Below are positions 1 through 64,000 of a stretch of DNA of 64,000 bases, piece by piece. Made by a program: the position numbers and the translations under genes. The DNA is from Heterodontus francisci (lineage: Eukaryota), in assembly GCF_036365525.1 (NCBI RefSeq), contig NC_090399.1, forward strand, positions 42,316,430 to 42,380,429. Direction: 5' to 3'. Under the pieces are notes generated by a model, which was given only the letters and a program-made list of their open reading frames with translations, made no database searches and was not told the origin of the DNA. The first letter of the stretch is position 1; every line of letters begins with the position of its first letter.

Positions 1-850
1 TTCCATTGATTTGCTCTCCTTGTATTTGCTAAAAGCCTCACTTTTCCTTCTCATCGTACCCTGAATGTTTCTGGTCATCCATGGTTCTCTGGGCTTGTTG
101 CTTCCCTAAAGGGACATGTTGGGCCTGTACCCGCCCCATTTCCTTTTTGAATGCACCCCACTGTTCTTCTGTAGATTTCCCGACAAGTAACTCTTTCCAG
201 TCTACCTTGGCCAGATCCTGCCTTATTTTACTAAAATTCGCTCTTCCCCCAATCCAAAACCTTTTTTTGCAACTTGTCCATTTCTTTCTCCATAAAAAGA
301 TTAAATTGTACCATGTTGTGGTCGCTATCACCAAAATGCACCCCCACCAACACATCAACCACCTGTCCGGCTTCATTCCCCAGAATTAGGTCCAGCACTG
401 CACCCTCCCTTGTTGGATCCTCTACATATTGAGCTAAAAAGTTCTCCTGTATGCATTTTAAGAACTCCATTCCATCTAAACCCTTAACACGATGACTATC
501 CCAATTAATGTTGGGAAAGTTGAAATCACCTAATATAATTACCCTATTATTTTTACACACCTCTGCAAATTGCGCACATATTTGCTCCTCAATTTCCCGC
601 TGACTATCTGGGGGTCTATAATAAACACCTAGCAATGTGGCTGTCCCTTTTTTATTCCTAAACTCTACCCATAAAGCTTCATTTGATGCCCCCTCCAAGA
701 TATCATCTCTCCTTACTGCATTAACTGACTCCTTAACTAATATTGCAATGCCCCCTCCTCTTTTACCCCCTCCTCTGTCTTGCCTGAAGATTCTATATCC
801 TGGGATATTGAGCTGCCAATCCTGCCCCTCCCTCAACCATGTCTCCGTGA
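1..850 (-). mobile_element. CR1-type LINE ORF2 fragment (AP endonuclease domain), continues left of window
   Basis: Translation AITETWLREGQDWQLNIPGY...GVYYRPP...ILGDFNFPNINW...LDLILGN...SDHN has the APE motifs. Nearly the same sequence as the + strand copy at 36.7-37.8 kb. Confidence 0.9.
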
Positions 851-1366
851 TGGCCCCCCGACACCTTCCCACTCTTTGGGGTGTAAAATTCAGCCCATAT
901 TCTAAGAGGGTAGTTTCCTCTTCCTGTGCTACAAATCTCATTAAGGGGACCCCTAACTTCATGCCCATTGACCAATTCAGATGGACTGAAACCAGTGGAT
1001 TCATTGTCCCTGGAGGCAAATAATAAAAATGATATCCCTTTTATACCAATCATGATACGCAAAAATTTAGGTCTTTATCGTACTTTTTATGGTTTGGTGA
1101 TGCCTTTCCAAAGCACCTTGGAACTGCAGACGATTTGAGCTGTTTCACTCCCAAATTACTGTGATCTCTTGAAATACCCTGACATGAAATTTGACCCCTG
1201 ATCCGATTGAATTTCTTTTGGCAATCCATGTCTGGTGAAAAACTGAATTAACTCATTAATCACAACTTTCACAGTGATCTTTTTCAAAGCAATTGCCTGT
1301 GGAAACCTAGTGGGCAAATCCATAATGGTTAGGAGAAACTTGTGACCTGACTTAGTTGTAGGTAAG

Positions 1367-2274
1367 TGTTATGACTGCTCAGGACAAAGCCTACAATCAA
1401 AATGTGATTCTGATTGCCGTGGGAGCAACGCACTGTTAATTCAGTCCCATCACTCCGCAGGTCATGTCATAATTCTTAAAGCTTTCCAAATTGGGAAAAA
1501 TACCCAGCCAAATTGAACAATCTAGTAACCCCTAAATGAAGCGAACCAAACCAGGTATCTTTAGATATCAACAAATTCAGATTTTAGTTTTTTTAACAAA
1601 TAGTAAAACACTAAGATAAACCAATATCTGAAGACTTTATAACTAATTTAAAAATCTAACTCATGTATTCGCATACATATACTAAAAATTAACAGTGGTT
1701 CGAGTTTTAAAAGAATGTAGATTTGATAAGTAGCTTTTCTCCGAAATAAAACAAATACACCAGTCTTTGTAAGTTACGTTCCTGATGAATGGTCTTCTAA
1801 TACAACACGGTCAAAGTTCACTTGCAGTCTTCCAAGGTCCGATGAAAACAGGGTCCTTCCAAAGATAGAAATTCAGCAGTTCAGTTCTGCAATTGTAACA
1901 TAAACACAGCAATACTGATACTAAAAGAAAGAAAAGTTTTTCTTATTTTTCTTAGGGAATTAATTATCTTGACTTTGTAGAATCTTGAGAGAGAAATAAC
2001 ACAGCTCTTTTCCCTTCAGTTTAAATTGGCTGAGAGCACTCCTCCTCCCTTCAATTGCTGAAATAGTCTGTCTCTGCCAGCCAGTTTTCAAAAGTCAAAT
2101 TGCAATATTGACTCTCATGTCTTCTCTCTCTCTCTGGCTGTTGCTTGGCAACCAGAATGCACCCTGGCTCACTGTGCCTCTGTGAAGAGCTCTTAAAGGT
2201 GCACTGTTCCTCTTACAGTCTGAAAGGCGCACCACAATATTTCCGAGGAGAAAAAAAAACACAGGACCGTGACA
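1367..2274 (-). repeat. 3' LTR of the inner gypsy element
   Basis: TGTTATGAC...CCGTGACA; colinear with 6425-7364. Confidence 0.9.
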
Positions 2275-5200
2275 CCTCTGCCCTTGGCGAAATGAAACGC
2301 CATTCCCAAAATGCATTTCATTACAATGCAAAAAATAGAAATTGGAAAAACGCCAATTTTTTCCCACATTTACGCACCATTCACTCTACTAATAATTTAC
2401 AGCATTTGCTTTATACCATCACCATCTATGAGCTAATATGGTTAAATCCGTGTCAAAGCATTGGCGATAACATTTTTCCTCAAAATATGTAAACAATTCT
2501 CTAAAATGATCAGATTGCAGCAATAAGTTCCATCAAAACATTTTTGGCTTTAAATCTTACAAGGAGTTTCCCAATTATCCCATTTCAGCCTTCCAAACAC
2601 AGTCTCCCAGGTGTTTGGTGTTTTCCTTCCAAGTGTCCCTATTGTCCATCACCTCAGCCAGGTGAGCTGCACAGCCAGCAGCACTGATCGCTACTGGGTT
2701 CACTATTCTCTGAGAAGTTTCCTGAATACCCCTTAACCTGTGTGACATCACTTGATACTGGAAAACCCATCGGTGTAACAGAAGCTGACTTTTCCTTATC
2801 TTGGGTTGTCAAAGGAATTTGACAATATCCCTCCAACACATCTGTCTCTTTAAGACACATGGTGTTGCCCACTCTGTTCGTACAATCTTTAAATGAGAAT
2901 TCGGGTAGGAGTCTGCCGGCTTTACCGCAATTACTTTTCTATAGTCTATGCAAGTTTGAGCCGACCTACAAACTCTTTTAAATGTTGTGAAAAGCCTGGT
3001 TAGGTTTTCACGCCGTTTTGCCTCTACGTATAAAAGGATATTGTCTAATTTTCCTAGCCATTCTGTATTCACTAATCTGATGGTTGAAGGTACAATCTGA
3101 GAATTTCCTAGGCCTGCTTCTGCCTCATCCTCACTATCCGTTTCCTTCTCAGCAGTCCCGATTACCTGACATACCTGTACTGGCTTATCCTCCTCCCTGC
3201 GATAATATTGCTTCAGCATGTTGATGTGACACAACCGGTTCTTCCGGCAATCAGGGGTGTCAATCAAGTAATCTACTTTATCCGCTCTTTTGATCACTCT
3301 ATATGGGCCGCTAACCCATGCTTCTAATGGTTTTCCCTGCAACGGTAACACTGATACTTCATCCCCTAGTTGAAAATCACAGGCTCTTGCATTCTTGTCT
3401 GCCTATTCTTATTAGCTTGGAATGCTTTCTGGTGTTCCTGAGCTACACCACAAACTTCCATGACCCTTTCCAGGAACACAGATGCATAGTCCAGTATCAA
3501 AGATTCATTCTTTTGTTTCAAGAATCAGTCTTTTATAAGTTTTAGCAGACCTCTTCATCTCGGTAAACCGCTGAGTCTCTGGTGGCAAATAAAATAAAAT
3601 CTCGTCCTTTATCCCAGTCACGTGGATATTCATGACAGTATGTTCTAATCATTGTTTTAAGAGTTTGGTGAAATCTCTGGAAAGCTCCCTGTGACTGTGG
3701 GTGATATGCTGAAGATCTCAACTGTCTAATCCCCAAATTGCCAGTGACTTCTTGAAATATCTTTGACATGAAATTAGAACCTTGATGTGATTGAACTTCA
3801 AATGGTAACACATAATCTTATAAAGAATTGGGTTAACTTTTCTACTACTGTTCTAGCAGTAATTGTCCTCAAAGGACTGGCCTCTGGAAATCGGACAGCC
3901 ATATTCGTGATGGGAAGTATGTATTGATGCCCCGCTTATGTTTTTGTCAAGGGTCGTACATAGTCTACTAAAATCCTGATAAATGGCCCCTCAATCACTG
4001 GTTGGGAACTAATGGTGCTGGTTTTATGGTGGATTGTGATTTTCCCACCATTTGACATGTATGGCGTGTCCTACAAAATTGTCTAACATTCTTTGTAAGA
4101 ACTTGCCAGTAGTAATGTTGGCTTATGATGATTTGGTCTTCCGAATTCCCCCATATCCTGCAAAAGGATTGTCATAATGCTACCTTTAATAATCCTTGGT
4201 GATATTTAGATGGTACCACTATCTGTGGCTCAACAACTGTCCAGTCTTCGTCTGCAGGTCTGTGAGGTGGTCTCCATTTCCTCCTCAAAACCCCATTTGC
4301 CATATAATAGCCTTCCGGAACTCCTTTCCCCTCAGCTTCTGTCAGACTGTCTGTGCCATTCGGTATATCTCTGGATCAGCTTGCTGTACTGCAATGATAG
4401 AGAATCTGTTAAACATCTCATTTGGATTATCTAAATCCCCAATAAGGTTTCAGATACTTGGCTATCTGTTTGTGGTGCACCTTTTACGTCTGTTTAGCCA
4501 TTGCTCTGATGACTACAGACGCAGGAAATATTCCTGGAACTTGTTCCTGTAATTGTTCAGTTTCCTTAATTTCACTCGGTTCCTCTGTAATTATAGGAGG
4601 AACTGATACTTTTGATCCAGCCAAATCATTTCCTAAGAGTAGATCAATTCCCTTTTCTGGCAAACTGTGGACAACTCCTACCGTTATTATCCAGATACTA
4701 AGTCACTGTCTAGGTGTACTTTATATAAAGATACGGGTATATAGTCCCTGCCAATTCCATTAACTGAAACTTTAGCATTCAAGGCGCTCTCTGGCGGAAA
4801 CATTATATCTTTCTCCAGCAAGAATGTTTTCCTGCCTCACCTACAGGATATGGAGTTACTTTCCCCTTTGACAAAAATTCATTATAACTCCTGGATGTTT
4901 TATTCTTAACCTCTACACTTTTAGTTTTACTATCTAGTTTCACAACTGTTGTTAAGCTATAGTTTGATCTGCTCTACACTCAGTCAGAGTCTTTTCCTCT
5001 GCACTAGCTTTGCATACCCCAACAAGTCCTATGAGTTTACCTCTCTCTTTCCAGCATTCTGAATGAAGATGACCCGTTTTGTGGCAATGATAACACTTTG
5101 GCTTGCGAACCTCATTTCTACCCTCAGCACCTTCCTTTCTTACCTGAGGAGGTGATCCTGGGGCATTCCCAGCTGTTCCTTCTTGTCCCCGGCTATTTGC

Positions 5201-6424
5201 CTTCCTTTCGCTCTCCCACATTCTATCCTTCTCGGGGTTATGGGGGTGACAGACAAAAGGTTTTGGCTTATTCACAAGCTCAAAATCATCACTTTCTGCT
5301 GTTTGCCTAGCTTTTAAAACTTTCAGGTTATCTACATGAGTTCTCACGACTGAAGGAATGGAGTTTTTAAACGCTTCTCAATGAATCCACTCCCGAAGGT
5401 TCTCATATGTGGTTTCCATCTTTAACACATACCCAACGGTCAAAAGTAATTTGTTTCACCCTCTCAAATTCTGCCTATGTCTGCCCAGCCAGTCTCCATT
5501 AGTTCAAAACTTGTGATGGTAAGCTTTAGGGACTAACTCATATACAGCGAGAATAGCCTTTTTTGCCATCTCATAACCTGTAGAAGCCTCTTCAGGAAAC
5601 ATGGCATAAACTTCATGAGCTCTGCCCATCATCCTGCTTTGCATAAGCAGTGTTCGGCTTTCCTTCGGCCATTTCAGCTGTTTGGCTATTTTTTCAGAAG
5701 ATATGAAAAAAGCTTCTACGTCCCTTTCCTCGAACTTAGGAAGAGCCTGTATAAATTTAAACAGCTTTTTGCTGGGTCCTGAGCTGAATTCAGATTCTTC
5801 CTGAACCGAATTTTCCTTGGATTCAAGACTACTCCTTTGTCTTAGTTCCATCTCTTTTAACTTAAATTCCCTCTCTTCTCTTTCACTTTTTCTCTGAAGT
5901 TCACGTTTTCTTCTTGCTATTGCTTTTTTCTGTTTCCTGTTGGAACTCCAATTTTTTCATTTCTAACTGAGTCGTAGCCAATTCCAGTGCATTACCCTCT
6001 GACTTGCCACCTTCTTGTATTTCATCTTCTCCTCCTTCTAATTCCAGATGTTCGGCTATTAAGTCAATTATCTCTGCTTTTTTGGTACCTGATTTCAATT
6101 CTAACCCAATTTTGCGGCCGTTCTTTTAATTTATTCTTGGATAATGTTATCAAGTCACTGAGGGAAGCATTCTGCTTTCCCAAAAACTCTTCTGCAACCG
6201 TTAATGCCATTACTATGGTAAGAGACCTTGCTCTTTATATTTCTTCATAATTGCCGTTAGATTTAGATCACAACAATCGAGTTTCCAATTGATATGTTCC
6301 CAGACGCGAGAACAATTAATATGATTCCAAAAGCAAGTCCTCCAAATAAGTCTGATTCTAATCCCAGGCGCAAGCCGCCTAATTAAAATATGATTTGATC
6401 GCGGATGAGCCTGCAGTTAAAATA

Positions 6425-7364
6425 TATAACGACCGTTCAGGACAAAGCCCCCAATCAAAATATATGATTCTGATTGTGCTGGGAGCTATGCACTGTCAAT
6501 TCAGTCCCAACACTCGCACAGGTTGCATCATACTTCAAGCTTTCCAAATGGGGGAAAAAACAGCCAAATTGAACAATCTAGTAACCCCCAAATGAAGCGA
6601 ACCAAACCAGGTATCTTTAGATATCAACAAATTAACTATTAATTTTAAAAAAAAACTAAAATCTTAAACGCTAAGATAAACCAATATCCAAAGACCTTAG
6701 ACCTTATTTAAATATCTAACTCCCACAATCGCGTACATATATTAAAAATTAACAGTGGTTCAGGTTTTAAAAGAATTTTATAAGTAGCTTTTCTCAGAAA
6801 TAAAACAAATAAGTCTTTGTAAGTTACGTTCCTGACGAATGGTCTTCTACTGCAACACGGTCAAAGTTCGCTTGCAGTCTTCCAAGATCCGATGAAAAAA
6901 GGGTCCTTGCAAAGATAGGAACTCAGTTCAGTTCAGCAGTTGTAGCATAAACTGTCCTTTCAGTGATAAACAGAGCAATGCTGATACTTTGTTAAGAAAG
7001 AAAAGCTTTTCTTACTTTTTTTAGGGAATTAATTTGGCTTGACTTTGTCGAATTTTCTTGAGATAAATAACACTGCTCTTTTCGCTTCAGTTGGAATAGT
7101 CTCAGAGAGCTGTCCTCCATTCAATTGCTGAAATAGTCTGTCTCTGCAAACCATTGTTAGCCAGCCAGTTTTCAAAAATCAAAGTACAATATTGAATCTC
7201 GTGTCTTCTTTCTCTGTGTGGCTGTTGCTTGGCAAACAGAATGCATCCTGGCTCACTGTGCCTCTGTGGACAGTTCTTAAAGGTGCACTGTTCCTTTTAC
7301 AGTCTGAAAGGTGGACCGCAATATTTCCGAGGAGAGAAGAAAAAAATAACACAGGACCTTGATA
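6425..7364 (-). repeat. 5' LTR of the inner gypsy element
   Basis: TATAACGAC...CCTTGATA; a diverged copy of 1367-2274. Confidence 0.9.
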
Positions 7365-9730
7365 TAAGGGTTTGACACAATCCATAAGAAGCGGTTCATC
7401 AGCAGCATGTATCGGTATCAATGGGGCTGGCTTAATCGGCAGCTGTGTCTTCCCTGATACCTAACATGTATGACAAGTTCTGCGAAATTCAACCACCCCT
7501 TTATACAAACCCGGTCAATAAAAATGCTGTCTTATCCTGGCCAGAGTTTTTCGAATAACCACATGACCTGCCGCTGGGATCTCATGGGCAATTCTTAAAG
7601 TTTGAACAACAGCCTGATGAACTATAGCCAAATTCTTAAGAGCAGACCTCCAGGCAGCTTTCCACTTTCTCATTAGAATTTCACTCTTGACATAACAACA
7701 CTCGGGCACCTTTTCAGCTTCTGCCTCGGTACACACCATTTGAGACAACTTCTTAAGTCAGGGTCTACCTGTTGTGCCTCAATCAAAGACGATCTGCTAA
7801 ACAATTCACCATTGCTAACCTTGAAGTCTTTTCCATCAATATCCCCTTCCGAACCCTTGAAAAAAGTTTCAGCCAAGGAAACATCCGAATTGTCCTCCAC
7901 AACAGCTGAATGCTTCTCACCTTGTTTAATTTTATGAGCCTGGGATCTTGTCAGCACTCAATATGGTATTATTCCAGGAAATTCCTACTGCGAAACTTTG
8001 GTTTCAGCAACCTCAACTGGCTTTTCTGGAACTACTGGAGACACCAATACATTATCCCCAGCTAAGTCATTACCTTGCAATAAGTCCACCACTTCAATGT
8101 GCAAATCGGGGATGATTCCCACTGTTACTGGACCGGTGACTAAATGACATTGCAAATTAACCTTATGCAATGGAACAGATAAATAACCCCTTTCAATGCC
8201 CCGCACTATGACTTTGACTTTCATTATGCTACTCGGGGGGGAAAACTTGCATCCTTTGCTACCATTAATGACTGGGTTACCTTTGTATCAGCATAATCAG
8301 TTTGCCTGCCTCATTGACAAATATGGGGACACCTTACACCTGAACAGAAAACTTCTATAGCCTTCATGGACCTGACTTAATTCCTTAACACACCTCTGTT
8401 CACTATCCAACATCGCCAAAGCTACTGGCTTGTCAGCAGTGCTACCTATTGTGGCATCCTTTTCAGGACAGGCTTTTGATAAACCTACCACAGCTACCAA
8501 TTTGCCTTTTAACTTCCAGCATTCTGATTTTATATGCCCTTTTATTACAAAAATATCATATTGGTCTTTTTGCCTCAACCCTAGTCTCCTGAATCTTTTT
8601 TAGCGCCTGTATCCTCTCCTTTACACTTTCTCACAAAAACCAAATCTCTTCTCATTATCAACCCTCCTATCTTTCTAATTTCTCTGAAGGTTTCAAAACT
8701 GAGGTCTGTAACTACACCTTTTTTGGGTCAATTCGTAATCATCTGCCATTCCTTATTTTACCAACTTTATTCCTCCAGTGGGACCATATTCTTGAAGGGA
8801 TACTATTTTTTAATTTGTTCATTAGGATTACATCCCCAAGGCTTTCTCAATCCTCATGGACCTATACCATCAATCAAATAACATTTTCTCCTCTCCAGCA
8901 ACTTCCATAAATGTCTGGCCTTTTTTAAAATTCCTGAATTTTTTTCCTGTAAACCTCTGGTACCAATTCTTAAGCATTGAGAACTGCAGTTTTAACCATT
9001 TCATAATCACTTGACTGTTTCCCCCAAAAGTGTTGAATACACCGCTAATGCTTTCCCCACCAACACACTTCATAATATTGTCCGACTTTCTTTCCATTGC
9101 ACCTCGGTAGCAATTTTTTCAAAAGATACAAAGTACATTTCAGCTCCTTCCTTGCTGAATTTAGGCACCAAGCGAATATTCCTTGCCAAACTAAAACCAG
9201 AAGATAAATCGATTCATCCTCAAACCTTCCTGCCACCCCCTGTTCATGTAATCTAAGCTTTTCTTTGTCCAGTTCAAACTTCCTGGTTTCTCTTTCTTTA
9301 TCTTTCGCTTCTAAATTCAAGTTTTCTCATTTAAAACTGTAATTGTCTGTCCCTTTTTCTTTTTGAAGTTCCAGTCACCTCATTTGTAACTAAATTCTAG
9401 CTAACTCAATCTGAGAGCTACCAGGAACACAATTTTCTTCCTCGAGGGTAAAATGCTGAGCCAACACTTCCATAATTTCTGTCTTTTTGGCTTTTGAACT
9501 TAACTAACCCCCTACTTGCTCTGCTGCAGCTATTAAGGTATTCACTGTTAATGGTGTTAATTCAATGAGAGTCAAATCTTCTCTCTCTGCAAAAGCTTGA
9601 GCAACAAAAGTAGACATGCTGACTTTTCTTTAAGTACAGCAAAAGTAATTGTAAAATCTTATTTGTTTAAATTCCGGCAAATTCCAATGTACAGCCCCTG
9701 AATTCATATCCCGGCCCTGAGTCCCCAATT

Positions 9731-10661
9731 TGTTACAACCTCAGTGAGACAGTTAACGTTAAAATATGAGATATAAACCCCCAGACCAGTTTAAAGAATT
9801 ACACAAGATTTCACATTTGAAGATTTTTATTATAACTAAACTAAAGGAAATCCCCATTAACTAAACAGTACTTTGTAAGTAGCTGATACCCCAAATTACA
9901 GGGAAAGGTATTTTATTTATTTATTAAAACACTTGAAAACCTCACACCACACTTATGTTACACCATCATCCTTGATGGTGAAATCGCTGCAGCTAAAAGT
10001 CCCAAACTCCTCCTAGTTGCAATGGGTTGGATCTCCCAGACCTTTCTCAAAGTCAATGTCCTCTTTGCTCACTTCTTCTGAGCACTTTCAACCTGGACGT
10101 CTTTGCATAAGGTGATTTCTGGTGATTCTGTTGGTCTTTTACTTTTCTGCAAACCTCAACTTTCAAAACAGGTTCAAGTCTTTGAAGCCTTTTGCTCTAT
10201 CAGTCTTCTGAGAGCAGGTGTTCTCTCTGTCTTTCCTCTCTGAGGTTGCCACCACTAGTCGTCTTCCTTACAGCCTGCTGGCTTATGAAAATCTGTTGAA
10301 TTTAACTGGAATATAGCCAATTGTCTCTTCCAATATGCAAAGTCCACAATTCTGGCTATAGCAGAGCCACCTGGACTTTCCACTGTTTCTAGGTGTTAAC
10401 AACTGCTATTCATGTTCACATTCTCAGAGTCACTGGCTCCTTGTTTACAATCTGAAAGTCTGGGAGGGTGAAACCCATTGTTCTTCAGGTGTTATAACCC
10501 TGCAGTCTCTGCTTTTCAAAAAAATCTTTGATCTTGGTGCTTTATTGTCCTGGTAACCAAGATCCCCTTCTTGAAGCAGAGTTGATGTGAAGTCACCTGA
10601 CTTTTCCGACTCCATCTTAAACTTTTAAAAATCGCAGTTTTTAAAACATAATCGTGTTACA
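9731..10661 (-). repeat. 5' LTR of the outer gypsy element
   Basis: Bounded by TGTTAC...GTTACA (TG..CA) and directly adjacent to the PBS. Confidence 0.7.
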
Positions 10662-10822
10662 AAGTTCAGCATTCGTAACGAGAGAGGGAAATAAATATTA
10701 ACTGTCAATGTTTCAAAGTCCTCACACCAATTATAGAGGGCAGTAATCGAGTCAGTGTATCCTGGAATATTACATATGACAGGACCCAGTGTATTCTCTC
10801 CTTGATTCACTCTCTCCAACAG

Positions 10823-10927
10823 AACTAAAGTCTGGCTCCCAGGTTCCTGTTACTGTCTGGATTGTACTTGGGATCCTCGGGCTGATCGTCTTTCTCGCCA
10901 TTGTGGCTGCCATCATCAAGAGGAAAG
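10823..10927 (+). CDS. MHC class I connecting-peptide/transmembrane exon: (E)LKSGSQVPVTVWIVLGILGLIVFLAIVAAIIKRK
   Basis: Acceptor ctctctccaacag, donor gtagga; 105 nt, phase 1-1; ~22-aa hydrophobic stretch followed by a KRK stop-transfer motif. Confidence 0.8.
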
Positions 10928-10959
10928 GTAGGAATTGGAGATAATATGGACAGGACCTC

Positions 10960-11430
10960 ACTGTGGGTGATGGGGCTGCAGGCTCCAGAGGGTGACGCTC
11001 AAGATGTAGGGGGTGAGGCTCAGGATAATGAGGAGGGGCCCAGATTGGGGAGGAGCGGCTAAGCTGAGGGCCCAGGGCCGGGGCCTGTGGAGTGGCAAAG
11101 AGGGGCCCGGGGCCAGGGCCCTGGGGAGGGGTGGTGTTGAGGAGCCGGGGGCCTTGGGATGGCGTTGAGGAGCCAGGGCCTTGGGGTGGCAATGAGGGGG
11201 CCAGGGCAGGCACCGGGGGGTGGGGGTGGGTAGCGATGAGGGGCCTGAAGCCGGGGCCTGGAGGGGTGGTGGCAATGAGGGCCCGGGGCCTGCGGGTTGG
11301 CCATGAGGGACCCATGGCCCGTGGATGGCGGTGAGGGGGGCCAATGCATGGGGGGTGGCGATGAAGGGCCCAGTGCCAGGGCCTAGAGGTGTTGATGAAG
11401 GACCCTAGTGCTGGGTGGTGATGAAGGGCC
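10960..11430 (+). repeat. G-rich degenerate tandem repeat in the TM-cytoplasmic intron
   Basis: Recurring GGGGTGGTGGCAATGAGGGGCCCGGGGCC-like units. Confidence 0.6.
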
Positions 11431-11540
11431 CATTGTGGGATGGACATTCCATCTCTCCCTTTCACTTGGAGTTCCTGCCTGTCTCCTCTCTGATTTTCAG
11501 TTGGTTTCTCGTCACTCACTGAGTATTCCTTGTTTTACAG

Positions 11541-11573
11541 TGACAGAGAAGAGCGGCTACAATCCTACAAAGA
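11541..11573 (+). CDS. MHC class I cytoplasmic exon: (V)TEKSGYNPTK
   Basis: Acceptor tgttttacag, donor gtaagc; 33 nt, phase 1-1, in frame with the TM exon. Same size as class I exon 6 and carries the conserved SGY tyrosine motif. Confidence 0.8.
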
Positions 11574-11670
11574 GTAAGCTGACCATCAAACATCCTCTAG
11601 ATCTCCATGTGCCTGTGTCAATCAATGACCATTGTGTGTCTGATATACTCAACAGCTCATTACTCTGTCT

Positions 11671-12246
11671 NNNNNNNNNNNNNNNNNNNNNNNNNNNNNN
11701 NNNNNNNNNNNNNNNNNNNNNNNNNNNNNNNNNNNNNNNNNNNNNNNNNNNNNNNNNNNNNNNNNNNNNNNNNNNNNNNNNNNNNNNNNNNNNNNNNNNN
11801 NNNNNNNNNNNNNNNNNNNNNNNNNNNNNNNNNNNNNNNNNNNNNNNNNNNNNNNNNNNNNNNNNNNNNNNNNNNNNNNNNNNNNNNNNNNNNNNNNNNN
11901 NNNNNNNNNNNNNNNNNNNNNNNNNNNNNNNNNNNNNNNNNNNNNNNNNNNNNNNNNNNNNNNNNNNNNNNNNNNNNNNNNNNNNNNNNNNNNNNNNNNT
12001 CTCTCGCAATCTCTCTCTCGCAATCTCTCTCTCGCAATCTCTCTCTNNNNNNNNNNNNNNNNNNNNNNNNNNNNNNNNNNNNNNNNNNNNNNNNNNNNNN
12101 NNNNNNNNNNNNNNNNNNNNNNNNNNNNNNNNNNNNNNNNNNNNNNNNNNNNNNNNNNNNNNNNNNNNNNNNNNNNNNNNNNNNNNNNNNNNNNNNNNNN
12201 NNNNNNNNNNNNNNNNNNNNNNNNNNNNNNNNNNNNNNNNNNNNNN
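11671..12246. other. Assembly gaps (329 N at 11671-11999; 200 N at 12047-12246) around a short (CTCTCGCAAT)-type repeat
   Basis: Runs of N seen directly. Confidence 0.99.
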
Positions 12247-15200
12247 TCTCGTTCCCTCGCTGACACTCGCCCCCACCACTTCCCCTCGTTCCTCAGCCCC
12301 CCACCAACTCCCCTCGCTACCTCGCCAACCCTCGCCCCCACCACTTCCTCCGCTCCCTCGCCATCCATCGCCCCCACCACTGCCCCTCGCTCCCTCGCCC
12401 CCCACCAACCGCCCCTCGCTCCCTCGCCCCACCACCTCCCCTCGCTCCCTCGCCCCCACCACCTCCCTCGCTCCCTCGCCACCACCACCTCCCCTCGCTC
12501 CCTCGCCCCCACCACTCCCCTCGCTCCCTCGCCCCACCACCTCCCCTCGCTCCTCGCCCCCACCACCTCCCCTCGCTCCCTCGCCCCCACCACCTCCCTC
12601 GCTCCCTCGCCCACACCACCTCCCCTCGCTCCCTCGCCCACACCACCTCCCCTCGCTCCCTCGCCCACACCACCTCCCTCGCTCCCTCGCCCACACCACC
12701 TCCCCTCGCTCCCTCGCCCCACACCACCTCCCCTCGCTCCCTCGCCCACACCACCTCCCCTCGCTCCCTCGCCCACACCACCTCCCCTCGCTCCCTCGCC
12801 CACACCACCTCCCCTCGCTCCCTCGCCCACACCACCTCCCCTCGCTCCCTCGCCCACACCACCTCCCCTCGCATCCCTCGCCCACACCACCTCCCTCGCT
12901 CCCTCGCCCACACACCTCCCCTCGCTCCCTCGCCCACACCACCTCCCTCGCTCCTCGCCCACACCACCTCCCCTCGCTCCCTCGCCCACACCCCCTCCCC
13001 TCACTCCCTCGCCCACACCACCTCCCCTCACTCCCTCGCCCACACCACCTCCCCTCACTCCCTCGCCCACACCACCTCCCCTCACTCCCTCGCCCACACC
13101 ACCTCCCCTCACTCCCTCGCCCACACCACCTCCCCTCACTCCCTCGCCCACACCACCTCCCCCCCCTCCGTCGCCCCCACCACCTCTCCTCCCTCCCTCG
13201 CCCTCCCCTCGCCCTCCCCTCGCCCCCCCGCCACCACCTCCCCCCCTCCCTCGCACGCACCTCCTCCCCTCACTCCCACCACCTCCTCCCCTCACTCCCA
13301 CCGCCTCCCCCCGGTCCCTCGCCCCCACCGCCTCCCCCCGATCCCTCGCCCCCACCGTCATCCCCCGCTCCCTCGCCCCCACCGTCTTCCCCCGCTCCCT
13401 CGCCCCCACCGTCTTCCCCCCGCACCCTCGCCCCCACCACTTCCCCTCGCTCCCTCGCCCCCACCACTTCCCCTCGCTCCCTCACCCTCCTCGCCCTCGC
13501 CCCCTCGCCGACACTCGCACCCCCTTCCCTCGCCCCCACAACTTCCACTCGCTCCCTCGCCCCCAACAATTTGCCCCACACCCTCACCCCCACCACCTCC
13601 CCTCGCTGCCACCACTTCCCCTCACTCCCTCGCCGACCCTCGCCCCCACCACTTTCCCTCGCCCCCACCACTTCCCTCGCTCCCTCGCCATCCATCGCCC
13701 CCACCACTTCCCCTCGCTCCCTCGCCGACCCTCGCCCCCACCACCTCATCTCGCTCCCATGCCGACCCTCACCCCCCACCTCCCCTCGCTCCCCCCACCT
13801 TCCCTCATTCCCTCGCCCCCACCACTTCCCCTCACTCCCTCGCCGACCCTCGCCCCCACCACCTCCCCTCGCTCCATCGCCGACCATCGCACCCCCGCCG
13901 ACCCTCGCCCCCACCACCTCCCCTCGTTCCCTCGCCCCAACAACCACCCCTCGCTCCGTCGCCCCCACCACCTCCCCTCGCTCCCTCGCCCCACCACCTC
14001 CCCTCGCTCCCTCGTCCCATCACCTCCCTCGCTCCCTCGTCCCCATCACCTCCCCTCGCTCCCTCGTCCCCATCACCTCCCCTCGCTCCCTCGCCCCCAT
14101 CACCTCCCCTCGCTCCCTCACCCCCATCACCTCCCCTCGCTCCCTCGCCCCCTCCCCCACTCCCCTCCCCCCCCCCCCACCTCCCCCCGCCCCCCCCCAC
14201 TCCACCTCCCCCACCCTCGCCCCCACCTCCCCCCACTCTCGCCCCCCCACTCCCACCTCCCCCCCACTCCCTCGCCCCCCCACTCCACCTCCCCCCACTC
14301 CCTCGCCCCCCCACCCCCTCCCCCCACTCCCTCGCCCCCCCACCACCTCCCCCCACTCCCTCGCACCCCCCACCACCTCCCCCACCACCTCCCCCCCGCA
14401 CCCTCGCCCCCACCACTTCCCCTCGCTCCCTCGCCCCCACCACTTCCCTTCGCTCCCTCACCCTCCCTCGCCCTCGCTCCCTCGCCGACCCTCGCCCCCA
14501 CCACTTCCACTCGCCGACCCTCGCCCCCCCTCTTCCCCTCGCTCCCTCGCCGACACTCGCCCCCCCTTCCCCTCGCCCCCACCAACTTCCACTCGCTCCC
14601 TCGCCCCAACAATTTGCCCCACACCCTCATCCCTCCCTCATTCCCTCGCCCCCACCACTTCCCCTCACTCCCTCGCCGACCCTCGCCCCCACCACCTCCC
14701 CTCGCTCCCACCACCTCCCCTCGCTCCATCGCCGACCATCGCACCCCCGCCGACCATCGCCCCCCACCACCTCCCCTCGTTCCCTCGCCCCAACAACCAC
14801 CCCTCGCTCCGTCGCCCCCACCACCTCCCCTCGCTCCCTCGCCCCCACCACCTCCCCTCGCTCCCTCGTCCCCACCACCTCCCTCGCTCCCACCACCTCC
14901 CCTCGCTCCTCGTCCCACCACCTCCCCTCGCTCCCTCGCCCCCATCACCTCCCCTCGCTCCCTCGCCCCCATCACCTCCCCCTCGCCCCCATCACTTCCC
15001 CCCCACCTCCCCCCACACCACCTCCCCCCACTCCCTCGCCCCCCCCACTCCACCTCCCCCCACTCCACCTCCCCCCACTCCCTCGCCCCCCCACCTCCCC
15101 CCACTCCCTCGCCCCCCCACCTCCCCCCACTCCCTCGCCCCCCCCACTCCCCCCGCCCCCCCCACTCCCCCCACTCCCTCGCCCCCCCCACTCCCCCGCC

Positions 15201-18200
15201 CCCCCCACTCCCCCACTCCCTCGCCCCCCCCACTCCACCTCCCCCACTCCACCTCCCCCACCTCCCCCCACTCCACCTCCCCCACTCCACCTCCCCCCAC
15301 CTCCCCCCCACCTCCCCCACTCCACCTCCCCCACCTCCCCCCACCTCCCCCCACTCCACCTTCCCCCCACTCCCTCGCCCCCCCCCACCACCTCCCCCCA
15401 CTCCCTCGCCCCCCCACCACCTCCCCCCACCTCCCCCACTTCCCCCACTCCACCTCCCCCCACTCCCTCGCCCCCCCCACCACCTCCCCCACTCCCTCGC
15501 CCCCCACCACCTCCCCCCACTCCCTCGCCCCCCCCACCACCTCCCCCCACTCCTCGCCCCCCCCACCACCTCCCCCCACTCCCTCGCCCCCCCACACCTC
15601 CCCCCCACTCCCTCGCCCCCCCACCCACCCCCCCCCCACTCCCTCGCCCCCCCACCACCTCCCCCCACTCCCTCGCCACCCCCCACCCACCTCCCCCCAC
15701 TCCCTCGCCCCCCCCACCACCTCCCCCCACTACCCTTGCCACCCCCACCACCTCCCCCCACTCCCTCGCCACCCCCCACCACCTCCCCCCACTCCCTCGC
15801 CACCCCCACCACCTCCCCCCACTCCCTCGCCCCCCCCACTCCCTCGCCCCACTCCCTCGCCCCCCCCACTCCCTCGCCCCCCCCACTCCCTCGCCCCACT
15901 CCCCCCACTCCCCCCACTCCCTCGCCCCCCCCACCTCCCCCCACTCCCTCGCCCCCCCCACTCCCCCCACTCCCTCGCCCCCCCCACTCCCCCCACTCCC
16001 ACCTCCCCCCACTCCCTCGCCCCCCCCACTCCCTCGCCCCCCCCACTCCCTCGCCCCACTCCCCCCACTCCCCTCGCCCCCCACCTCCCCCCACTCCCCT
16101 CGCCCCCCCCACTCCCCCCACTCCCCACCTCCCCCCACTCCCTCGCCCCCCCCACCTCCCCCCACTCCCTCGCCCCCCCCACCTCCCCCCACTCCCTCGC
16201 CCCCCCACCTCCCCCCACTCCCTCGCCCCCCACCCCCCCACCTCCCCCCACTCCCCCACTCCTCGCCCCCACTCCCCCACTCCCTCGCCCCCCCCACCTC
16301 CCCCCACTCCCTCGCCCCCCCCCACCCTCCCCCCACTCCCTCGCCCCCCCCCCCACCTCCCCCCACTCCCTCGCCCCCCCCCTCCCCCCACTCCTCGCCC
16401 CCCCCCTCCCCCCACTCCCTCGCCCCCCCCCACCTCCCCCCACTCCCCCCACCTCCCCCCTCCCCCCACTCCCTCGCCCCCCCCACCTCCCCCCACTCCC
16501 CCCTCCCCCCACTCCCTCGCCCCCCCCACCTCCCCCACTCCCTCGCCCCCCCCCTCCCCCCACTCCCTCGCCCCCCCCACCTCCCCCCCCTCCCCCCCCA
16601 CCACCCACCTCCCCCCCTCCCCCCACTCCCTCGCCCCCCCCCACCTCCCCCCACCTCCTCGCCCCCCCCCCTCCCCCACCTCCTCGCCCCCCCCCNNNNN
16701 NNNNNNNNNNNNNNNNNNNNNNNNNNNNNNNNNNNNNNNNNNNNNNNNNNNNNNNNNNNNNNNNNNNNNNNNNNNNNNNNNNNNNNNNNNNNNNNNNNNN
16801 NNNNNNNNNNNNNNNNNNNNNNNNNNNNNNNNNNNNNNNNNNNNNNNNNNNNNNNNNNNNNNNNNNNNNNNNNNNNNNNNNNNNNNNNNNNNNNNNNNNN
16901 NNNNNNNNNNNNNNNNNNNNNNNNNNNNNNNNNNNNNNNNNNNNNNNNNNNNNNNNNNNNNNNNNNNNNNNNNNNNNNNNNNNNNNNNNNNNNNNNNNNN
17001 NNNNNNNNNNNNNNNNNNNNNNNNNNNNNNNNNNNNNNNNNNNNNNNNNNNNNNNNNNNNNNNNNNNNNNNNNNNNNNNNNNNNNNNNNNNNNNNNNNNN
17101 NNNNNNNNNNNNNNNNNNNNNNNNNNNNNNNNNNNGCCCCCCCCCCACCTCCCCCCCCTCCCCCACCTCCCCCCCTCCCCCCACTCCCTCGCCCCCCCCA
17201 CCTCCCCCCACTCCCTCGCCCCCCCCCCCACACTCCCCCCCCCCCACCTCCCCCCACTCCCTCGCCCCCCCCCCACCTCCCCCCCTCCCCCCACTCCCTC
17301 GCCCCCCCCCCCACCTCCCCCCCTCCCCCCACTCCCTCGCCCCCCCCCCACCTCCCCCCACTCCCTCGCCCCCCCCACCTCCCCCCCTCCCCCCCCCCCA
17401 CCTCCCCCCACTCCCTCGCCCCCCCCCACCTCCCCCCCTCCCCCCACTCCCTCGCCCCCCCCCACCTCCCCCCACTCCCTCGCCCCCCCCCCCCACCTCC
17501 CCCACTCCCTCGCCCCCCCCCCACCCTCCCCCCCTCCCCCCCCCCCACCTCCCCCCACTCCCTCGCCCCCCCCCACCTCCCCCCCTCCCCCCACTCCCTC
17601 GCCCCCCCCCCACCTCCCCCCACTCCTCGCCCCCCCCCCACCTCCCCCCCTCCCCCCACTCCCTCGCCCCCCCCCCACCTCCCCCCCACTCCCTCGCCCC
17701 CCCCCCCACCTCCCCCCCTCCCCCCACTCCCTCGCCCCCCCCCCCACCTCCCCCCACTCCCTCGCCCCCCCCCCCCACCTCCCCCCCTCCCCCCACTCCC
17801 TCGCCCCCCCCACCTCCCCCCACTCCCTCGCCCCCCCCCCCCACCTCCCCCCCTCCCCCCACTCCCTCGCCCCCCCCACCTCCCCCCACTCCCTCGCCCC
17901 CCCCCCACCTCCCCCCCTCCCCCCACTTCCCCCCCACCTCCCCCCACTCCCTCGCCCCCCCCCCCCACCTCCCCCCCCTCCCCCCACTTCCCCCCCACTC
18001 CCCCCACTCCCTCGCCCCCCCCCCCACCTCCCCCCCTCCCCCACTTCCCCCCCACCTCCCCCCACTCCCTCGCCCCCCCCCCCACCTCCCCCCACTTCCC
18101 CCCCTCCCCCCACTCCCTCGCCCCCCCCCACCTCCCCCCACTCCCTCGCCCCCCCCCACCTCCCCCCACTCCCTCGCCCCCCCCCCACCTCCCCCACTCC

Positions 18201-18390
18201 CTCGCCCCCCCCCCACCTCCCCCCACTCCCTCGCCCCCCCCCACCTCCCCCCCTCCCCCCACTCCCTCGCCCCCCCCCCACCTCCCCCCACTCCCTCGCC
18301 CCCCCCCCACCTCCCCCCACTCCCTCGCCACCTCCCCCCACTCCCTCGCCCCCCCCCCCCACCTCCCCCACTCCCTCGGCCACCACCTCC
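12247..18390. repeat. C-rich (G-rich on the minus strand) low-complexity minisatellite, units ~24-28 bp such as CTCCCTCGCCCCCCCACCTCCCCCCA; includes a 440-N gap at 16696-17135
   Basis: Seen directly; starts immediately after the alpha2 splice donor. Confidence 0.95.
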
Positions 18391-18396
18391 ACTCAC

Positions 18397-18669
18397 CAAC
18401 ACTCAGTTCTCGCTGTCCGTACTGCAGAAATTTCTTCAGCCATTCAATACACATAACCTCCAGGCTGTGTTTGCATTGCTGTTTGTTAGCGCTGTTCTGG
18501 TTCCACTTGCTTTGGATGCCCTTCCCCCAATGGACCGGAGTCTCCCACACAATGTTATCCTTGTCAAAGGTCATGAAGTCTCGTCCGTCCCATCCCCTCT
18601 GAGCAAACGCAGTCCTGGTCCCATCATCCCGCAGCTCACAGCCGAATTGGATCTGGTACGTGTGGATCC
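18397..18669 (-). CDS. MHC class I alpha2 domain exon (non-classical)
   Basis: GIHTYQIQFGCELRDDG...GWDGRDF...KW...CIEWLKKF; C101-C164 pair present; acceptor ttgacag, donor gtgagt; 273 nt, phase 1-1. Confidence 0.95.
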
Positions 18670-18684
18670 CTGTCAATCAGGCGC

Positions 18685-18905
18685 ACACAGCCAATAAAGC
18701 AGACCCGCCTGGGAGGCCACGCCCACTATTGCACAGCCAATCAAAAGCAGTATCACCGGGAGACCCCGCCCACTACCTCAGCCAATCAAACTCTTCTAAG
18801 TGGGAGACCCCGCCCACTACCTCAGCCAATGAAAACTGGCCTCACTGGGAGACCCCGCCCACACTGCCTGTCCCACATCTCCTGGGGAGCTGCGGCTATT
18901 TAAAG
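18685..18905 (+). promoter_or_regulatory. Intronic ~45-bp tandem array of CCAAT and GC boxes ending in a TATA-like box
   Basis: CCAAT at 18691, 18737, 18782 and 18826; CC(A/C)CGCCC at 18717, 18764, 18808 and 18853; TATTTAAA at 18897-18904. Function is inferred only. Confidence 0.4.
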
Positions 18906-19190
18906 GGCCCCTTTGTATTTTAAGGACATCGCGTTTGCCAGTCTTTGGATAAATGTTCATGAAGTGATGTGAGGCCGCTCGCTTTGACTGCCGGCTCTGC
19001 TCTGCTCTGGGAGACGGAGCCATTGCCCCATCCCCGCTCGCTTTGACTGCCGGCTCTGCTCTGCTCTGGGAGACGGAGCCACGTTTCTTGTTATCCTGGC
19101 TCCCGCACTATTCCCGACTTTTCCCCATCCCCGCCCGGATCCCTCAGCCCACAGAAAGAGGCAGAGTGAGGCGGAAGGGTGAAGACTCAC

Positions 19191-19433
19191 CTTCCGACTG
19201 GTTGGACTGGGATGTGAGTATTGGAAGGTCGATTTTAGAATACAGCTCCTGCCTCTGCATCCAGGACTCCGGCCCCTCGCTTTCCAACATCCACTGCTCC
19301 CGGGGAATCAACTGCTTCCGATCGCTGTCGTACATAACAAACTGGACATCGTCAACATAACCAACACCCACAAACTCCGGGAAACCGGGAATCGGAGTCA
19401 TGCGGGTAGCGAAATACCGGAGAGAGTGAGAGC
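19191..19433 (-). CDS. MHC class I alpha1 domain exon (shortened helix)
   Basis: GSHSLRYF...[20 protein letters not shown]...PREQWM...NQS (N86 glycosylation sequon); acceptor ttttcag, donor gtgagt; 243 nt, phase 1-1. Confidence 0.95.
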
Positions 19434-19616
19434 CTGAAAAACAAAGAGAAACATCAGGACACAAACCCCAAAACACCAATATAAGAAATTGTAGTTTTAA
19501 GGATATTATTAAATTACTAGAAATAGTTGTAGGAGAAATGCTGGGACTTTGTCTTCTTAGCAAAGGTTCTTTCTTTCTCTCTCACTTCAAGCAATTCTCC
19601 AACTATATGCTCAAGG

Positions 19617-41596: not shown

Positions 41597-41645
41597 CTGC
41601 AGAGACCCCTCCACACAGAAGGACCAGCACTATCAGTCCAATCAT
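41597..41645 (-). CDS. MHC class I leader (signal peptide) exon: MIGLIVLVLLCGGVSA
   Basis: ATG in ACAATGA context, hydrophobic core, VSA|G cleavage site; donor GCAG|gtgagt is phase 1 and joins in frame to GSHSLRYF. Confidence 0.88.
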
Positions 41646-43910: not shown

Positions 43911-44399
43911 GGATGATGTAACTGCCCCTATCTCGTGATGGTTCAATGCTGCTCTCAGGGAAAACATGAATGATGTGAGGGTGCTGGAAAAAGAAGCACA
44001 TTTCTTTTGGACTATGAACATAAAGCAGGCCATTTAGCCCAGCTGTTCCCTGCTAGTGGTTATGTTACTCATGCGTCTTCCCATCCATTCCCATTTAATC
44101 CTGCCTACTACTATCAGCATCATCTTCCATTTCTTTCACTCTTATCTACCTTTGCCTTAAAGCAACACTGAGGATGGAGAATGGTGTGGCTGCACTCCCA
44201 CCTCACCAGTTGTGTACGCAGCAAGAGCATTCACATTTGTGCTACCACTGGACACGACATGCTTGTTTCTTTTAGTGCTCAGTCCCTTCTTGCTGAATGT
44301 TCCAGAACTGCTTGAACCCTTTGGATGCCCTCTCTGCTTGACAGGCAGCAGCTGGCAATTGCGGAGCCTCACAAGGCTCTGCATGGTTGTTTCAAAGGC

Positions 44400-62300: not shown

Positions 62301-64000
62301 TGGTTGCAGGAACAGGTGACACTGTGTCCATGTGCACTGCACGGATGGGTGCAGGAACAGGTGGCTGCGTGTGAACGTGCACAGCTCTGATGGGTGCAGG
62401 AACAGGTGGCTGTGTGTCCATGTGCACTGCTCTGATGGGTGCAGGAACAGGTGGCACTGTGTCAATGTGCACTGCTCTGATGCGTGCAGGAACAGTTGAC
62501 TGTGTGTCCATGTGCACTGCTCTGATGGGTGCAGGAACATTTGGCAGTGTGTCAATGTGCAGTGCTCTGATGGGTGCAGGAACAGTTGACTGTGTGTCCA
62601 TGTGCACTGCTCTGATGGGTGCAGGAACACGTGACTGTGTGTCCATGTGCACTGCTCTGATGGGTGCAGGAACAGGTGGCTGTGTGTCCTTGTGCACTGC
62701 TCTGATGGGTGCACGAACAGGTGGCACTGTGTCCCTGTGCACTGCTCGGATGGGTGCAGGAACAGGTGGCTGTCTGTCCATGTGCACTGCTCGGATGGGT
62801 GCAGGAACAGGTGGCTGAGTGTCCACGTGCACTGCTCTGATGGGTGCAGGAACAGGTGGCTGAGTGTCCACGTGCACTGCTCTGATGGGTGCAGGAACAG
62901 GTGATTGTGTGTCCATGTGCACTGCTCTGATGGTTGCAGGAACAGGTGGCACTGTGTCCATGTGCACTGCATGGATGGGTGCAGGAACAGGTGGCTGCGT
63001 GTGAACGTGCACAGCTCTGATGGGTGCAGGAACAGGTGGCTGTGTGTCCATGTGCACTGCTCTGATGGGTGCAGGAACAGGTGACTGTGTGTCAATGTGC
63101 ACTGCTCTGATGGGTGCAGGAACAGGTGGCTGTGTGTCAATGTGCACTGCTCTGATGGGTGCAGGAACAGTTGACTGTGTGTCCATGTGCATTGCTCTGA
63201 TGGGTGCAGGAACAGTTGACTGTGTGTCCATGTGCATTGCTCTGATGGGTGCAGGAACAGTTGACTGTGTGTCCATGTGCACTGCTCTGATGGGTGCAGG
63301 AACAGGTGGCTGTGTGTCCATGTGCACTGCTCTGATGGGTGCAGGAACAGGTGGCTGTGTGTCAATGTGCACTGCTCTGATGGGTGCAGGAACAGTTGAC
63401 TGTGTGTCCATGTGCATTGCTCTGATGGGTGCAGGAACAGTTGACTGTGTGTCCATGTGCACTGCTCTGATGGGTGCAGGAACAGGTGGCTGTGTGTCCA
63501 TGTGCACTGCTCTGATGGGTGCAGGAACAGTTGACTGTGTGTCCATGTGCACTGCTCTGATGGGTGCAGGAACAGGTGGCTGTGTGTCCATGTGCACTGC
63601 TCTGATGGGTGCAGGAACAGGTGACTGTGTGTCCACTTGCACTGCTCGAATGGGTGCAGGAACAGGTGGCTGTGTGTCCATGTGCACTGCTCTGATGTGT
63701 GCAGGAACAGGTGGCTGTGTGTCCATGTGCACTGCTCTGATGTGTGCAGGAACAGGTGGCTGTGTGTCCATGTGCACTGCTCTGATGTGTGCAGGAACAG
63801 GTGGCTGTGTGTCCATGTGCACTGCTCTGATGTGTGCAGGAACAGCTGGCTGTGTGTCCATGTGCACTGCTCGGATGGGTGCAGGAACAGGTGACTGTGT
63901 GTCCATGTGCACTGCTCGGATGGGTGCAGGAACAGGTGGCTGTGTGTCCATGTGCACTGCTCTGATGGGTGCAGGAACAGGTGGCTGTGTGTCTATGTGC
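44400..64000. repeat. 45-bp satellite array (GGTGCAGGAACAGGTGGCTGTGTGTCCATGTGCACTGCTCTGATG), over 430 units, with higher-order structure; runs off the window
   Basis: Direct tandem periodicity; variant patterns recur at offsets of 8,681 and 4,184 bp. Confidence 0.98.

What the first reader, a model, noticed from the sequence alone, without database searches (positions are those of the whole stretch)
10823..18669. Class I TM and cytoplasmic exons face the alpha1/alpha2 exons on the opposite strand, and alpha3 is missing
Seen: leader, alpha1 and alpha2 are on the minus strand, while TM (10823-10927) and cytoplasmic (11541-11573) exons are on the plus strand. Between them are only repeats and three N-gaps, one exactly 200 N. 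I find no Ig-C1 alpha3 exon on either strand. Inference, three options: (a) a mis-oriented scaffold join, favoured by the round-number gap; (b) two tail-to-tail paralogues whose 3' ends are lost in the gaps; (c) a real inversion leaving an alpha1-alpha2-only, possibly secreted, molecule. Alpha3-less class I-like proteins exist in mammals (ULBP/RAET1, EPCR).
Basis: partly seen in the sequence, partly recalled or inferred. Interest (0 to 1): 0.7.

Follow-up and report, generated by a model that had tools for sequence, protein, structure and literature searches.

The report
Flipped contig splits shark MHC gene
This is an ordinary, complete shark immune-recognition (MHC class I) gene: its 'missing' alpha3 exon lies 14 kb outside the window, and its back half faces the wrong way most likely because a 29-kb piece of the assembly was inserted backwards.

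Summary
The opposed exons are real in the assembly, but alpha3 is not missing. It lies 14 kb left of the window (G000:C29:42,302,445-708, + strand; Pfam C1-set E 3.8e-16). Alpha3, TM and cytoplasmic exons sit on one 28,989-bp block bounded by two runs of exactly 200 N. That block matches two close copies of the gene (B, 42.7 Mb; C, 40.36 Mb) in the orientation opposite to the rest of the window. The strand-biased alpha2-alpha3 intron repeat changes polarity at the same gap. A spliced contig from a likely RNA run joins the window's alpha2 (107 nt, no mismatch) to this alpha3 (65 nt, no mismatch), and other contigs run from alpha3 into the TM exon. Flipping the block gives six in-phase exons and a stop-free 322-aa frame. 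The gene is a nonclassical class Ib heavy chain (3 of 8 peptide-anchor residues), likely of the UBA lineage. Still open: whether this copy and B are alleles (retained haplotig) or a tandem duplication. Their alpha2 differences are all amino-acid-changing (12 codons against 0 silent).

The parts
41597..41645 (-). Leader exon (49 nt, ATG start, GT donor), 22.2 kb upstream of alpha1
   Evidence: same leader peptide as P0002
19191..19433 (-). Alpha1 exon (243 nt; 18 nt shorter than copy B)
   Evidence: 521-nt intron to alpha2 skipped in 4 of 4 runs laid
18397..18669 (-). Alpha2 exon (273 nt)
12247..18380 (.). Part of the alpha2-alpha3 intron: C-rich tandem repeat (C 0.72, G 0.05 on +), including the 440-N run
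   Evidence: same repeat and same polarity in the intact intron of copy B (C 0.68, G 0.08)
12047..12246 (.). 200-N run, the right boundary of the reversed block; inferred to be a scaffolding gap
   Evidence: alignment to B and C changes strand here; three further exactly-200-N runs lie at 42,299,287, 42,696,668 and 40,383,529
11541..11573 (+). Cytoplasmic exon (33 nt), on the reversed block
10823..10927 (+). Connecting-peptide and transmembrane exon (105 nt), on the reversed block; identical to copy B
   Evidence: loose ends behind alpha3 read into its first 30 nt
1..12046 (+). In-window part of the 28,989-bp reversed block (G000:C29:42,299,487-42,328,475). The block runs 16.9 kb further left and there carries the alpha3 (Ig C1-set) exon, 264 nt, + strand, OUTSIDE the window at G000:C29:42,302,445-42,302,708 (L049:6016-6279)
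   Evidence: 99.8% to copy B in reverse over 19.2 kb; alpha3: joined to the window's alpha2 in the 171-nt X2 contig

Best explanation
The locus holds a complete six-exon MHC class I heavy-chain frame (leader, alpha1, alpha2, alpha3, TM, cytoplasmic), and its back half faces the front half most likely because a 29-kb contig was placed backwards between two scaffolding gaps. The contig breaks fall in simple repeats: the G/C-skewed alpha2-alpha3 intron at one end and a GA-rich array after the cytoplasmic exon at the other. A short contig ending in repeats is hard to orient (inference). In the animal the gene is likely read leader to tail on one strand over about 58 kb and spliced normally. Its product would be a membrane-anchored, beta2-microglobulin-pairing nonclassical (class Ib) heavy chain, likely of the shark UBA lineage. 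With 5 of 8 peptide-end anchors changed, it is predicted not to hold peptides in the classical way.
For: (1) Alpha3 is intact and sits with TM and the cytoplasmic exon, in order, on a block bounded by two 200-N runs. (2) Copy B has all six exons on the minus strand on one gap-free stretch. The block matches B in reverse (99.8% over 19.2 kb; 91.8% over the repeat-rich 9.5 kb) and the window right of the gap matches B forward (99.4% over 8.4 kb; 99.6% over 14.2 kb). (3) Copy C agrees independently: it is + against the block and - against the alpha1/alpha2 side. (4) The intron repeat is G-rich at the block's far left end (C 0.07, G 0.66) and C-rich at window 12247-18380. After reversal, 153 of 153 local alignments between the two are same-sense. 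(5) A run-X2 contig of 171 nt and depth 1961 lies on window 18397-18503 (- strand, letters 1-107, 0 differences) and on L049:6015-6079 (+ strand, letters 107-171, 0 differences). Both halves cover sites that separate this copy from B and C, and the alpha3 half also from D and D'. (6) Loose ends behind alpha3 read into the TM exon in X1, X2 and X3 (30 of 30 letters in X2 equal window 10823-10852). (7) The six exons join in phase with 0 stops, 322 aa, 94% identical to P0002.
Against: No long read or Hi-C map across the gaps was seen. The bridging contig is one record from one run. It was matched between by run, length and depth, since records are renumbered per call. All runs laid come from one sample and are only guessed to be RNA, although exon-focused depth and intron skipping fit RNA. 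The flipped alpha2-alpha3 intron would be 9.3 kb against 5.2 kb (B) and 4.3 kb (C), and no near-identical overlap between the contig ends was found (best about 77%). The left join was not verified: the 103 kb left of the block shares no long unique block with the sequence next to B. No terminal, stop-bearing exon was found for this copy or for B.
Confidence: 0.96

Rival explanations
1. A real 29-kb inversion exists on the assembled haplotype and breaks this copy, possibly leaving an alpha1-alpha2-only transcript. The spliced contig would then come from an uninverted, otherwise identical allele on the other chromosome.
For: No read-level evidence across either gap was available. Both ends lie in repeats, where real inversions can also break (general knowledge).
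Against: Both breakpoints fall exactly on 200-N runs. The exact alpha2-alpha3 splice is present in the sample. The one loose end shown at the alpha2 3' end reads into an alpha3 exon, not into a tail (1352 further loose ends were not shown).
Confidence: 0.02
2. The block belongs to another copy (for example the second haplotype of B) and was dropped here; the window's alpha1-alpha2 has a different 3' half elsewhere.
For: The block is 99.8% identical to B over 19 kb, with an identical TM exon. The left join is unverified.
Against: The block's alpha3 differs from B at 5 of 264 and from C at 5 of 264 positions, and it is this alpha3 that the exact contig joins to the window's alpha2. Even a misplaced block would still be an assembly artefact.
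Confidence: 0.015
3. Two tail-to-tail paralogues whose 3' ends are lost in the gaps.
For: The region is a multicopy class I cluster: 36 alpha2 matches in the genome, 33 of them on C29.
Against: No second alpha1 or alpha2 lies on the block or in the 103 kb fetched to its left. The block starts in the alpha2-alpha3 intron repeat itself.
Confidence: 0.005

Closest known systems
Shark nonclassical class Ib, UBA lineage (nearest named cDNA proteins: horn shark O19480 = P0008, nurse shark O19479 = P0026)
   Same: Same clade in a 40-row quick tree (22 rows, SH-aLRT 99). Multicopy, with full alpha1-alpha2-alpha3-TM-cytoplasmic layout and eroded anchors. PMC12562908 (passages seen) describes UBA as an expanded family derived from UAA and cites Bartl 1997 for it. 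PMC10751288 (passages seen) places a multicopy UBA cluster away from the class Ia region.
   Different: That O19479 and O19480 are the UBA founders is recalled, not shown by a call. This copy with B and C forms its own branch (support 100, length 0.21) and keeps 3 of 8 anchors, against 5 of 8 in O19480 and 4 of 8 in O19479. It has a 6-residue alpha1 deletion relative to B and an extra alpha2 cysteine.
Classical shark class Ia, UAA (nurse shark structure 6LUP = P0076; Triakis O46836)
   Same: Best PDB match for copy B (E 3.2e-94, residues 17-282, all three domains).
   Different: Separate clade. Anchors Y59, R84, T143, Y159 and Y171 are replaced in the window's copy. The naming of 6LUP as classical UAA is recalled.
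Alpha3-less class I-like proteins (ULBP/RAET1, EPCR)
   Same: Only the appearance inside the 64-kb window.
   Different: Alpha3 is present and spliced in.
Mis-oriented contigs and retained haplotigs in scaffolded assemblies
   Same: A short contig with fixed-length N runs at both ends and breaks in simple repeats. PMC6719893 (start of abstract only) names inversions as a persisting Hi-C scaffolding error.
   Different: No difference in kind. Whether the surrounding 400-kb duplicate is a haplotig is not settled.

Membership tests
MHC class I heavy chain | alpha1 and alpha2 groove domains | tested here: met
   Pfam PF00129, E 7.4e-16 and 1.1e-17
MHC class I heavy chain | Ig C1-set alpha3 spliced behind alpha2 | tested here: met
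   PF07654 E 3.8e-16; exact junction contig
MHC class I heavy chain | TM and cytoplasmic exons in phase behind alpha3 | tested here: met
   stop-free 322-aa frame; alpha3-to-TM loose ends in 3 of the 3 likely RNA runs laid
MHC class I heavy chain | terminal exon with stop codon | tested here: inconclusive
   the terminal-exon region of neighbour D had no match near this copy or B; it may lie beyond the gap or be too divergent
MHC class I heavy chain | binds beta2-microglobulin and reaches the cell surface | not tested
   inferred from family membership only
alpha3-less class I-like (ULBP/RAET1, EPCR) | no alpha3 domain in the product | tested here: not met
classical class Ia (UAA) | eight peptide-terminus anchors (Y7, Y59, R84, T143, K146, W147, Y159, Y171; list recalled) | tested here: not met
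   3 of 8 kept (Y7, K146, W147) against 8 of 8 in 6LUP, O46836 and P0035; the columns rest on one MAFFT alignment of 10 rows
classical class Ia (UAA) | groups with 6LUP and Triakis class I alleles | tested here: not met
   separate clade, quick tree, no bootstrap
classical class Ia (UAA) | lies next to immunoproteasome and TAP genes | tested here: inconclusive
   the only one of 28 proteasome-family hits on C29 is at 65.90 Mb, 23.6 Mb away and beside other class I copies; subunit not identified, TAP not searched
shark class Ib UBA | multicopy lineage related to UAA with eroded anchors | tested here: met
   7 rows (the window's copy and 6 horn shark proteins) in one subclade, support 95; anchors above
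shark class Ib UBA | clade with named UBA reference sequences | tested here: inconclusive
   groups with O19479 and O19480, but no record labelled UBA was returned; accession search found 0 papers; the two lineage papers were not held
shark class Ib UBA | cluster flanked by c4 and rxrb (PMC10751288) | tested here: inconclusive
   PF07677 gave 4 hits, none on C29 (exon-by-exon search is weak); rxrb not searched

The most novel reading that the evidence does not exclude
The inverted, alpha3-less gene is not real, but this copy and its two near-twins may be a nonclassical class Ib subfamily whose groove is under diversifying selection despite losing the classical peptide anchors. Alpha2 differs between the window's copy and B at 13 of 273 nt, 12 codons all amino-acid-changing, against 21 mismatches in 7,976 nt of adjacent intron. 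If the two are alleles in a falsely duplicated haplotig, this is a polymorphic class Ib locus, which would suggest a variable ligand or receptor.
Probability: 0.3. Interest if true: 0.4.

Novelty: not a real feature. Interest (0 to 1): 0.07.

Why it matters
As biology the finding dissolves: there is no alpha3-less or inverted class I gene. It has a practical use for curation. The block G000:C29:42,299,487-42,328,475 should be reversed. The window's gene seems absent from the protein collection: no longer protein with its alpha2 was returned, while B and C were (a weak search, 7 candidates). Copy C's listed protein has an intron-derived tail because its TM exon is lost at another gap. Class I gene counts in this cluster may also be inflated if the 400-kb duplicate is a haplotig. 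Repeat-rich introns longer than 20 kb make such shark genes look truncated in windows and in annotation.

Tried and rejected
Genome-wide PF07654 search: 150 of 626 candidates were scored and none lay near the window, so it was uninformative; alpha3 was found by a motif scan of fetched flanks instead. Whole-region self-BLAST timed out on tandem arrays and was replaced by unique k-mer chaining. Search for the terminal exon using neighbour D: no match near this copy or B; 40 matches elsewhere on C29. Test of the left join with D's downstream DNA: only dispersed repeats. Search for an overlap between the contig ends: only about 77% repeat matches. Allele versus paralogue: the duplicate's ends coincide with gaps and arrays, which fits both, and contig depth is no copy number. 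No RNA holder is on record among the 17 runs listed; 5 were laid (X1-X5), 12 were not. C-specific alpha2 variants were not among the differences shown (12 rows hidden), so C's expression is not judged. Earlier scan notes near this place: 0. Literature: 5 searches. Passages were seen for PMC10751288, PMC12562908 and PMC6523485, and one supplement search for PMC10751288 gave no lineage table in the places shown. The Almeida 2020 and 2021 papers were not held, so UDA and UEA features were not tested. The careful tree did not finish; the quick tree is reported. No structure or complex prediction was run, as it could not change the verdict.

Full report
Observation. The window is G000:C29:42,316,430-42,380,429 of a 6.0-Gb genome; the closest named proteins are from the horn shark. 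Leader (41597-41645), alpha1 (19191-19433) and alpha2 (18397-18669) lie on the minus strand; TM (10823-10927) and cytoplasmic (11541-11573) exons lie on the plus strand, with canonical splice sites. Three N runs of 329, 200 and 440 and simple repeats separate them. I call this gene copy A.

Alpha3 exists. A six-frame motif scan of the window plus 40 kb to its left found one Ig-C1 exon, at 42,302,445-42,302,708 on the plus strand, 14 kb left of the window (Pfam C1-set E 3.8e-16). It lies 24.5 kb upstream of the TM exon on the same strand, matching the 24.4-kb intron of copy B. Alpha3, TM and the cytoplasmic exon share a 28,989-bp block flanked by runs of exactly 200 N at 42,299,287 and 42,328,476, the latter being window 12047-12246. 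In the 1.06 Mb compared, four of six N runs are exactly 200 long and each sits at a break in homology, so I infer they are scaffolding gaps. The 329-N and 440-N runs mark no change of orientation.

The block is reversed. The alpha2 exon has 36 matches in the genome; two are 87-88% identical in protein: B at 42.73 Mb and C at 40.36 Mb. B carries all six exons on the minus strand without a gap. The block aligns to B in reverse (99.8% over 19,178 nt), while window 19034-41596 aligns forward at 99.4-99.6%. C, where alpha2 and alpha3 are collinear on one contig, gives the same conflict: plus against the block, minus against the alpha1/alpha2 side. The alpha2-alpha3 intron is a strand-biased repeat. 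It is C-rich on + in window 12247-18380 (C 0.72, G 0.05) and in B's intact intron (0.68, 0.08), but G-rich at the block's far left end (0.07, 0.66). After reversal all 153 local matches between the two ends are same-sense. The far left end of the block therefore belongs against window 12247.

Transcript evidence. Seventeen runs were listed, none on record as RNA; I laid X1, X2, X3, X5 on window 18390-21500 and X1, X2, X3, X4 on the alpha3 region. All are Logan contigs of one sample. The 521-nt alpha1-alpha2 intron is skipped at GT-AG ends in 4 of 4 runs, so X1, X2, X3 and X5 behave as RNA. In X2, a 171-nt contig of depth 1961 lies on alpha2 18397-18503 (minus strand, letters 1-107, no difference) and a contig of the same length and depth lies on alpha3 (plus strand, letters 107-171, no difference). 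I take these as one record. Its alpha2 part covers position 18448, where B and C differ from A, plus 18435 and 18465 (B) and 18480 and 18487 (C). Its alpha3 part covers positions that separate A from the four other alpha3 exons fetched. One contig thus reads alpha2 from the assembly's minus strand and alpha3 from its plus strand, as a flipped block predicts. Loose ends behind alpha3 read into the TM exon in X1, X2 and X3; TM is identical in A and B, so these do not name the copy. Limits: one bridging contig, one run, one sample.

The gene with the block reversed. The six exons join in phase into 322 codons without a stop, 94% identical to P0002, which corresponds to copy B, over about 58 kb. 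No terminal exon was found. In a 40-row quick tree it groups with B and C (support 100), inside a 22-row clade (support 99) holding horn shark O19480 and nurse shark O19479, apart from the nurse shark structure 6LUP and the Triakis alleles (39 of the 120 listed homologues were chosen by hand). It keeps 3 of 8 classical anchors. It is therefore a class Ib heavy chain. UBA is the likely lineage, from the tree, from passages in PMC12562908 and PMC10751288 and from recall; no labelled UBA record was returned and the C4 synteny test was inconclusive. That it pairs with beta2-microglobulin at the cell surface and binds ligand non-classically is inference from the family.

What stays open. The flipped block plus the next contig (42.30-42.70 Mb) repeats the sequence from 42.70 to about 43.12 Mb in the same order, including a second class I gene (D and D') and three tandem arrays. 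Identity is 99.2-99.8% in the best unique blocks and 93-98% in others. The duplicate begins and ends at gaps. This fits a retained second haplotype as well as a tandem duplication; B-specific alpha2 variants also appear in X1 and X2. C (97.5-99% in flanks) shows that at least two loci exist. Between copies, alpha2 changes are almost all amino-acid-changing (A/B 12 to 0, A/C 11 to 1, B/C 16 to 0 codons) and dense (13 of 273 nt against 21 of 7,976 in the neighbouring intron). This hints at selection on the groove, but rests on three sequences from one assembly.

Verdict. The facing exons and missing alpha3 are an assembly and window-edge artefact of an ordinary class Ib gene. Confidence 0.96; interest 0.07.

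Noticed in passing
G000:C29:42,299,487-42,696,667 versus 42,696,868-about 43,120,000: About 400 kb is present twice in the same order, the first copy bounded by 200-N runs; either a retained haplotig or a tandem duplication.
   Followed up: partly
window 18397-18669 versus copies B and C: Alpha2 differences are almost all amino-acid-changing (12:0, 11:1, 16:0 codons); between A and B they are about 18 times denser than in the adjacent intron.
   Followed up: partly
G000:C29:40,333,145-40,383,528 (copy C): Third copy, cut at a 200-N run before its TM exon; its listed protein P0001 ends in 110 residues encoded in the alpha3-TM intron.
   Followed up: yes
G000:C29:42,700,249-42,700,282 (copy B cytoplasmic exon): One base longer than the window's exon, so the frame meets a stop at the donor site, as in P0002; real variant or sequencing error not decided.
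   Followed up: no
G000:C29:42,285,805-42,299,255: A 5,961-nt inverted repeat at 99.97% identity with a 1.6-kb spacer ends almost at the left gap; a possible fold-back artefact or very recent inverted duplication.
   Followed up: no
G000:C29:32.7-42.9 Mb: 38 of 40 scored matches to the class I terminal-exon region of gene D lie here (90-100% identity), far more than the alpha2 matches in the same span; the one examined (40.26 Mb) matches only from the last intron onward. Possibly an amplified 3' fragment.
   Followed up: partly
P0004 (Pristis pectinata), P0005 (Hypanus sabinus): Ray proteins with two complete alpha1-alpha2-alpha3 sets in tandem, in two species; P0016 repeats alpha2-alpha3 only. 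Annotation read-through of neighbouring genes or a real double ectodomain.
   Followed up: partly
window 44292-64000: A 45-bp tandem array of more than 420 copies, about 90% alike, begins 2.6 kb upstream of the leader; a similar array lies upstream of copies B and C.
   Followed up: no
window 18704-19053: Contigs of all four runs show the alpha1-alpha2 intron without 18758-18801, and one in X3 also without 18975-19033, about the amount by which copy B's intron is shorter; the low intronic cover may come from another copy or allele.
   Followed up: no
G000:C29:57.4-62.8 Mb, C815, C1290, C1655: Ten near-identical alpha2 exons with the classical alpha2 anchors intact; a recent expansion or further false duplication.
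   Followed up: no
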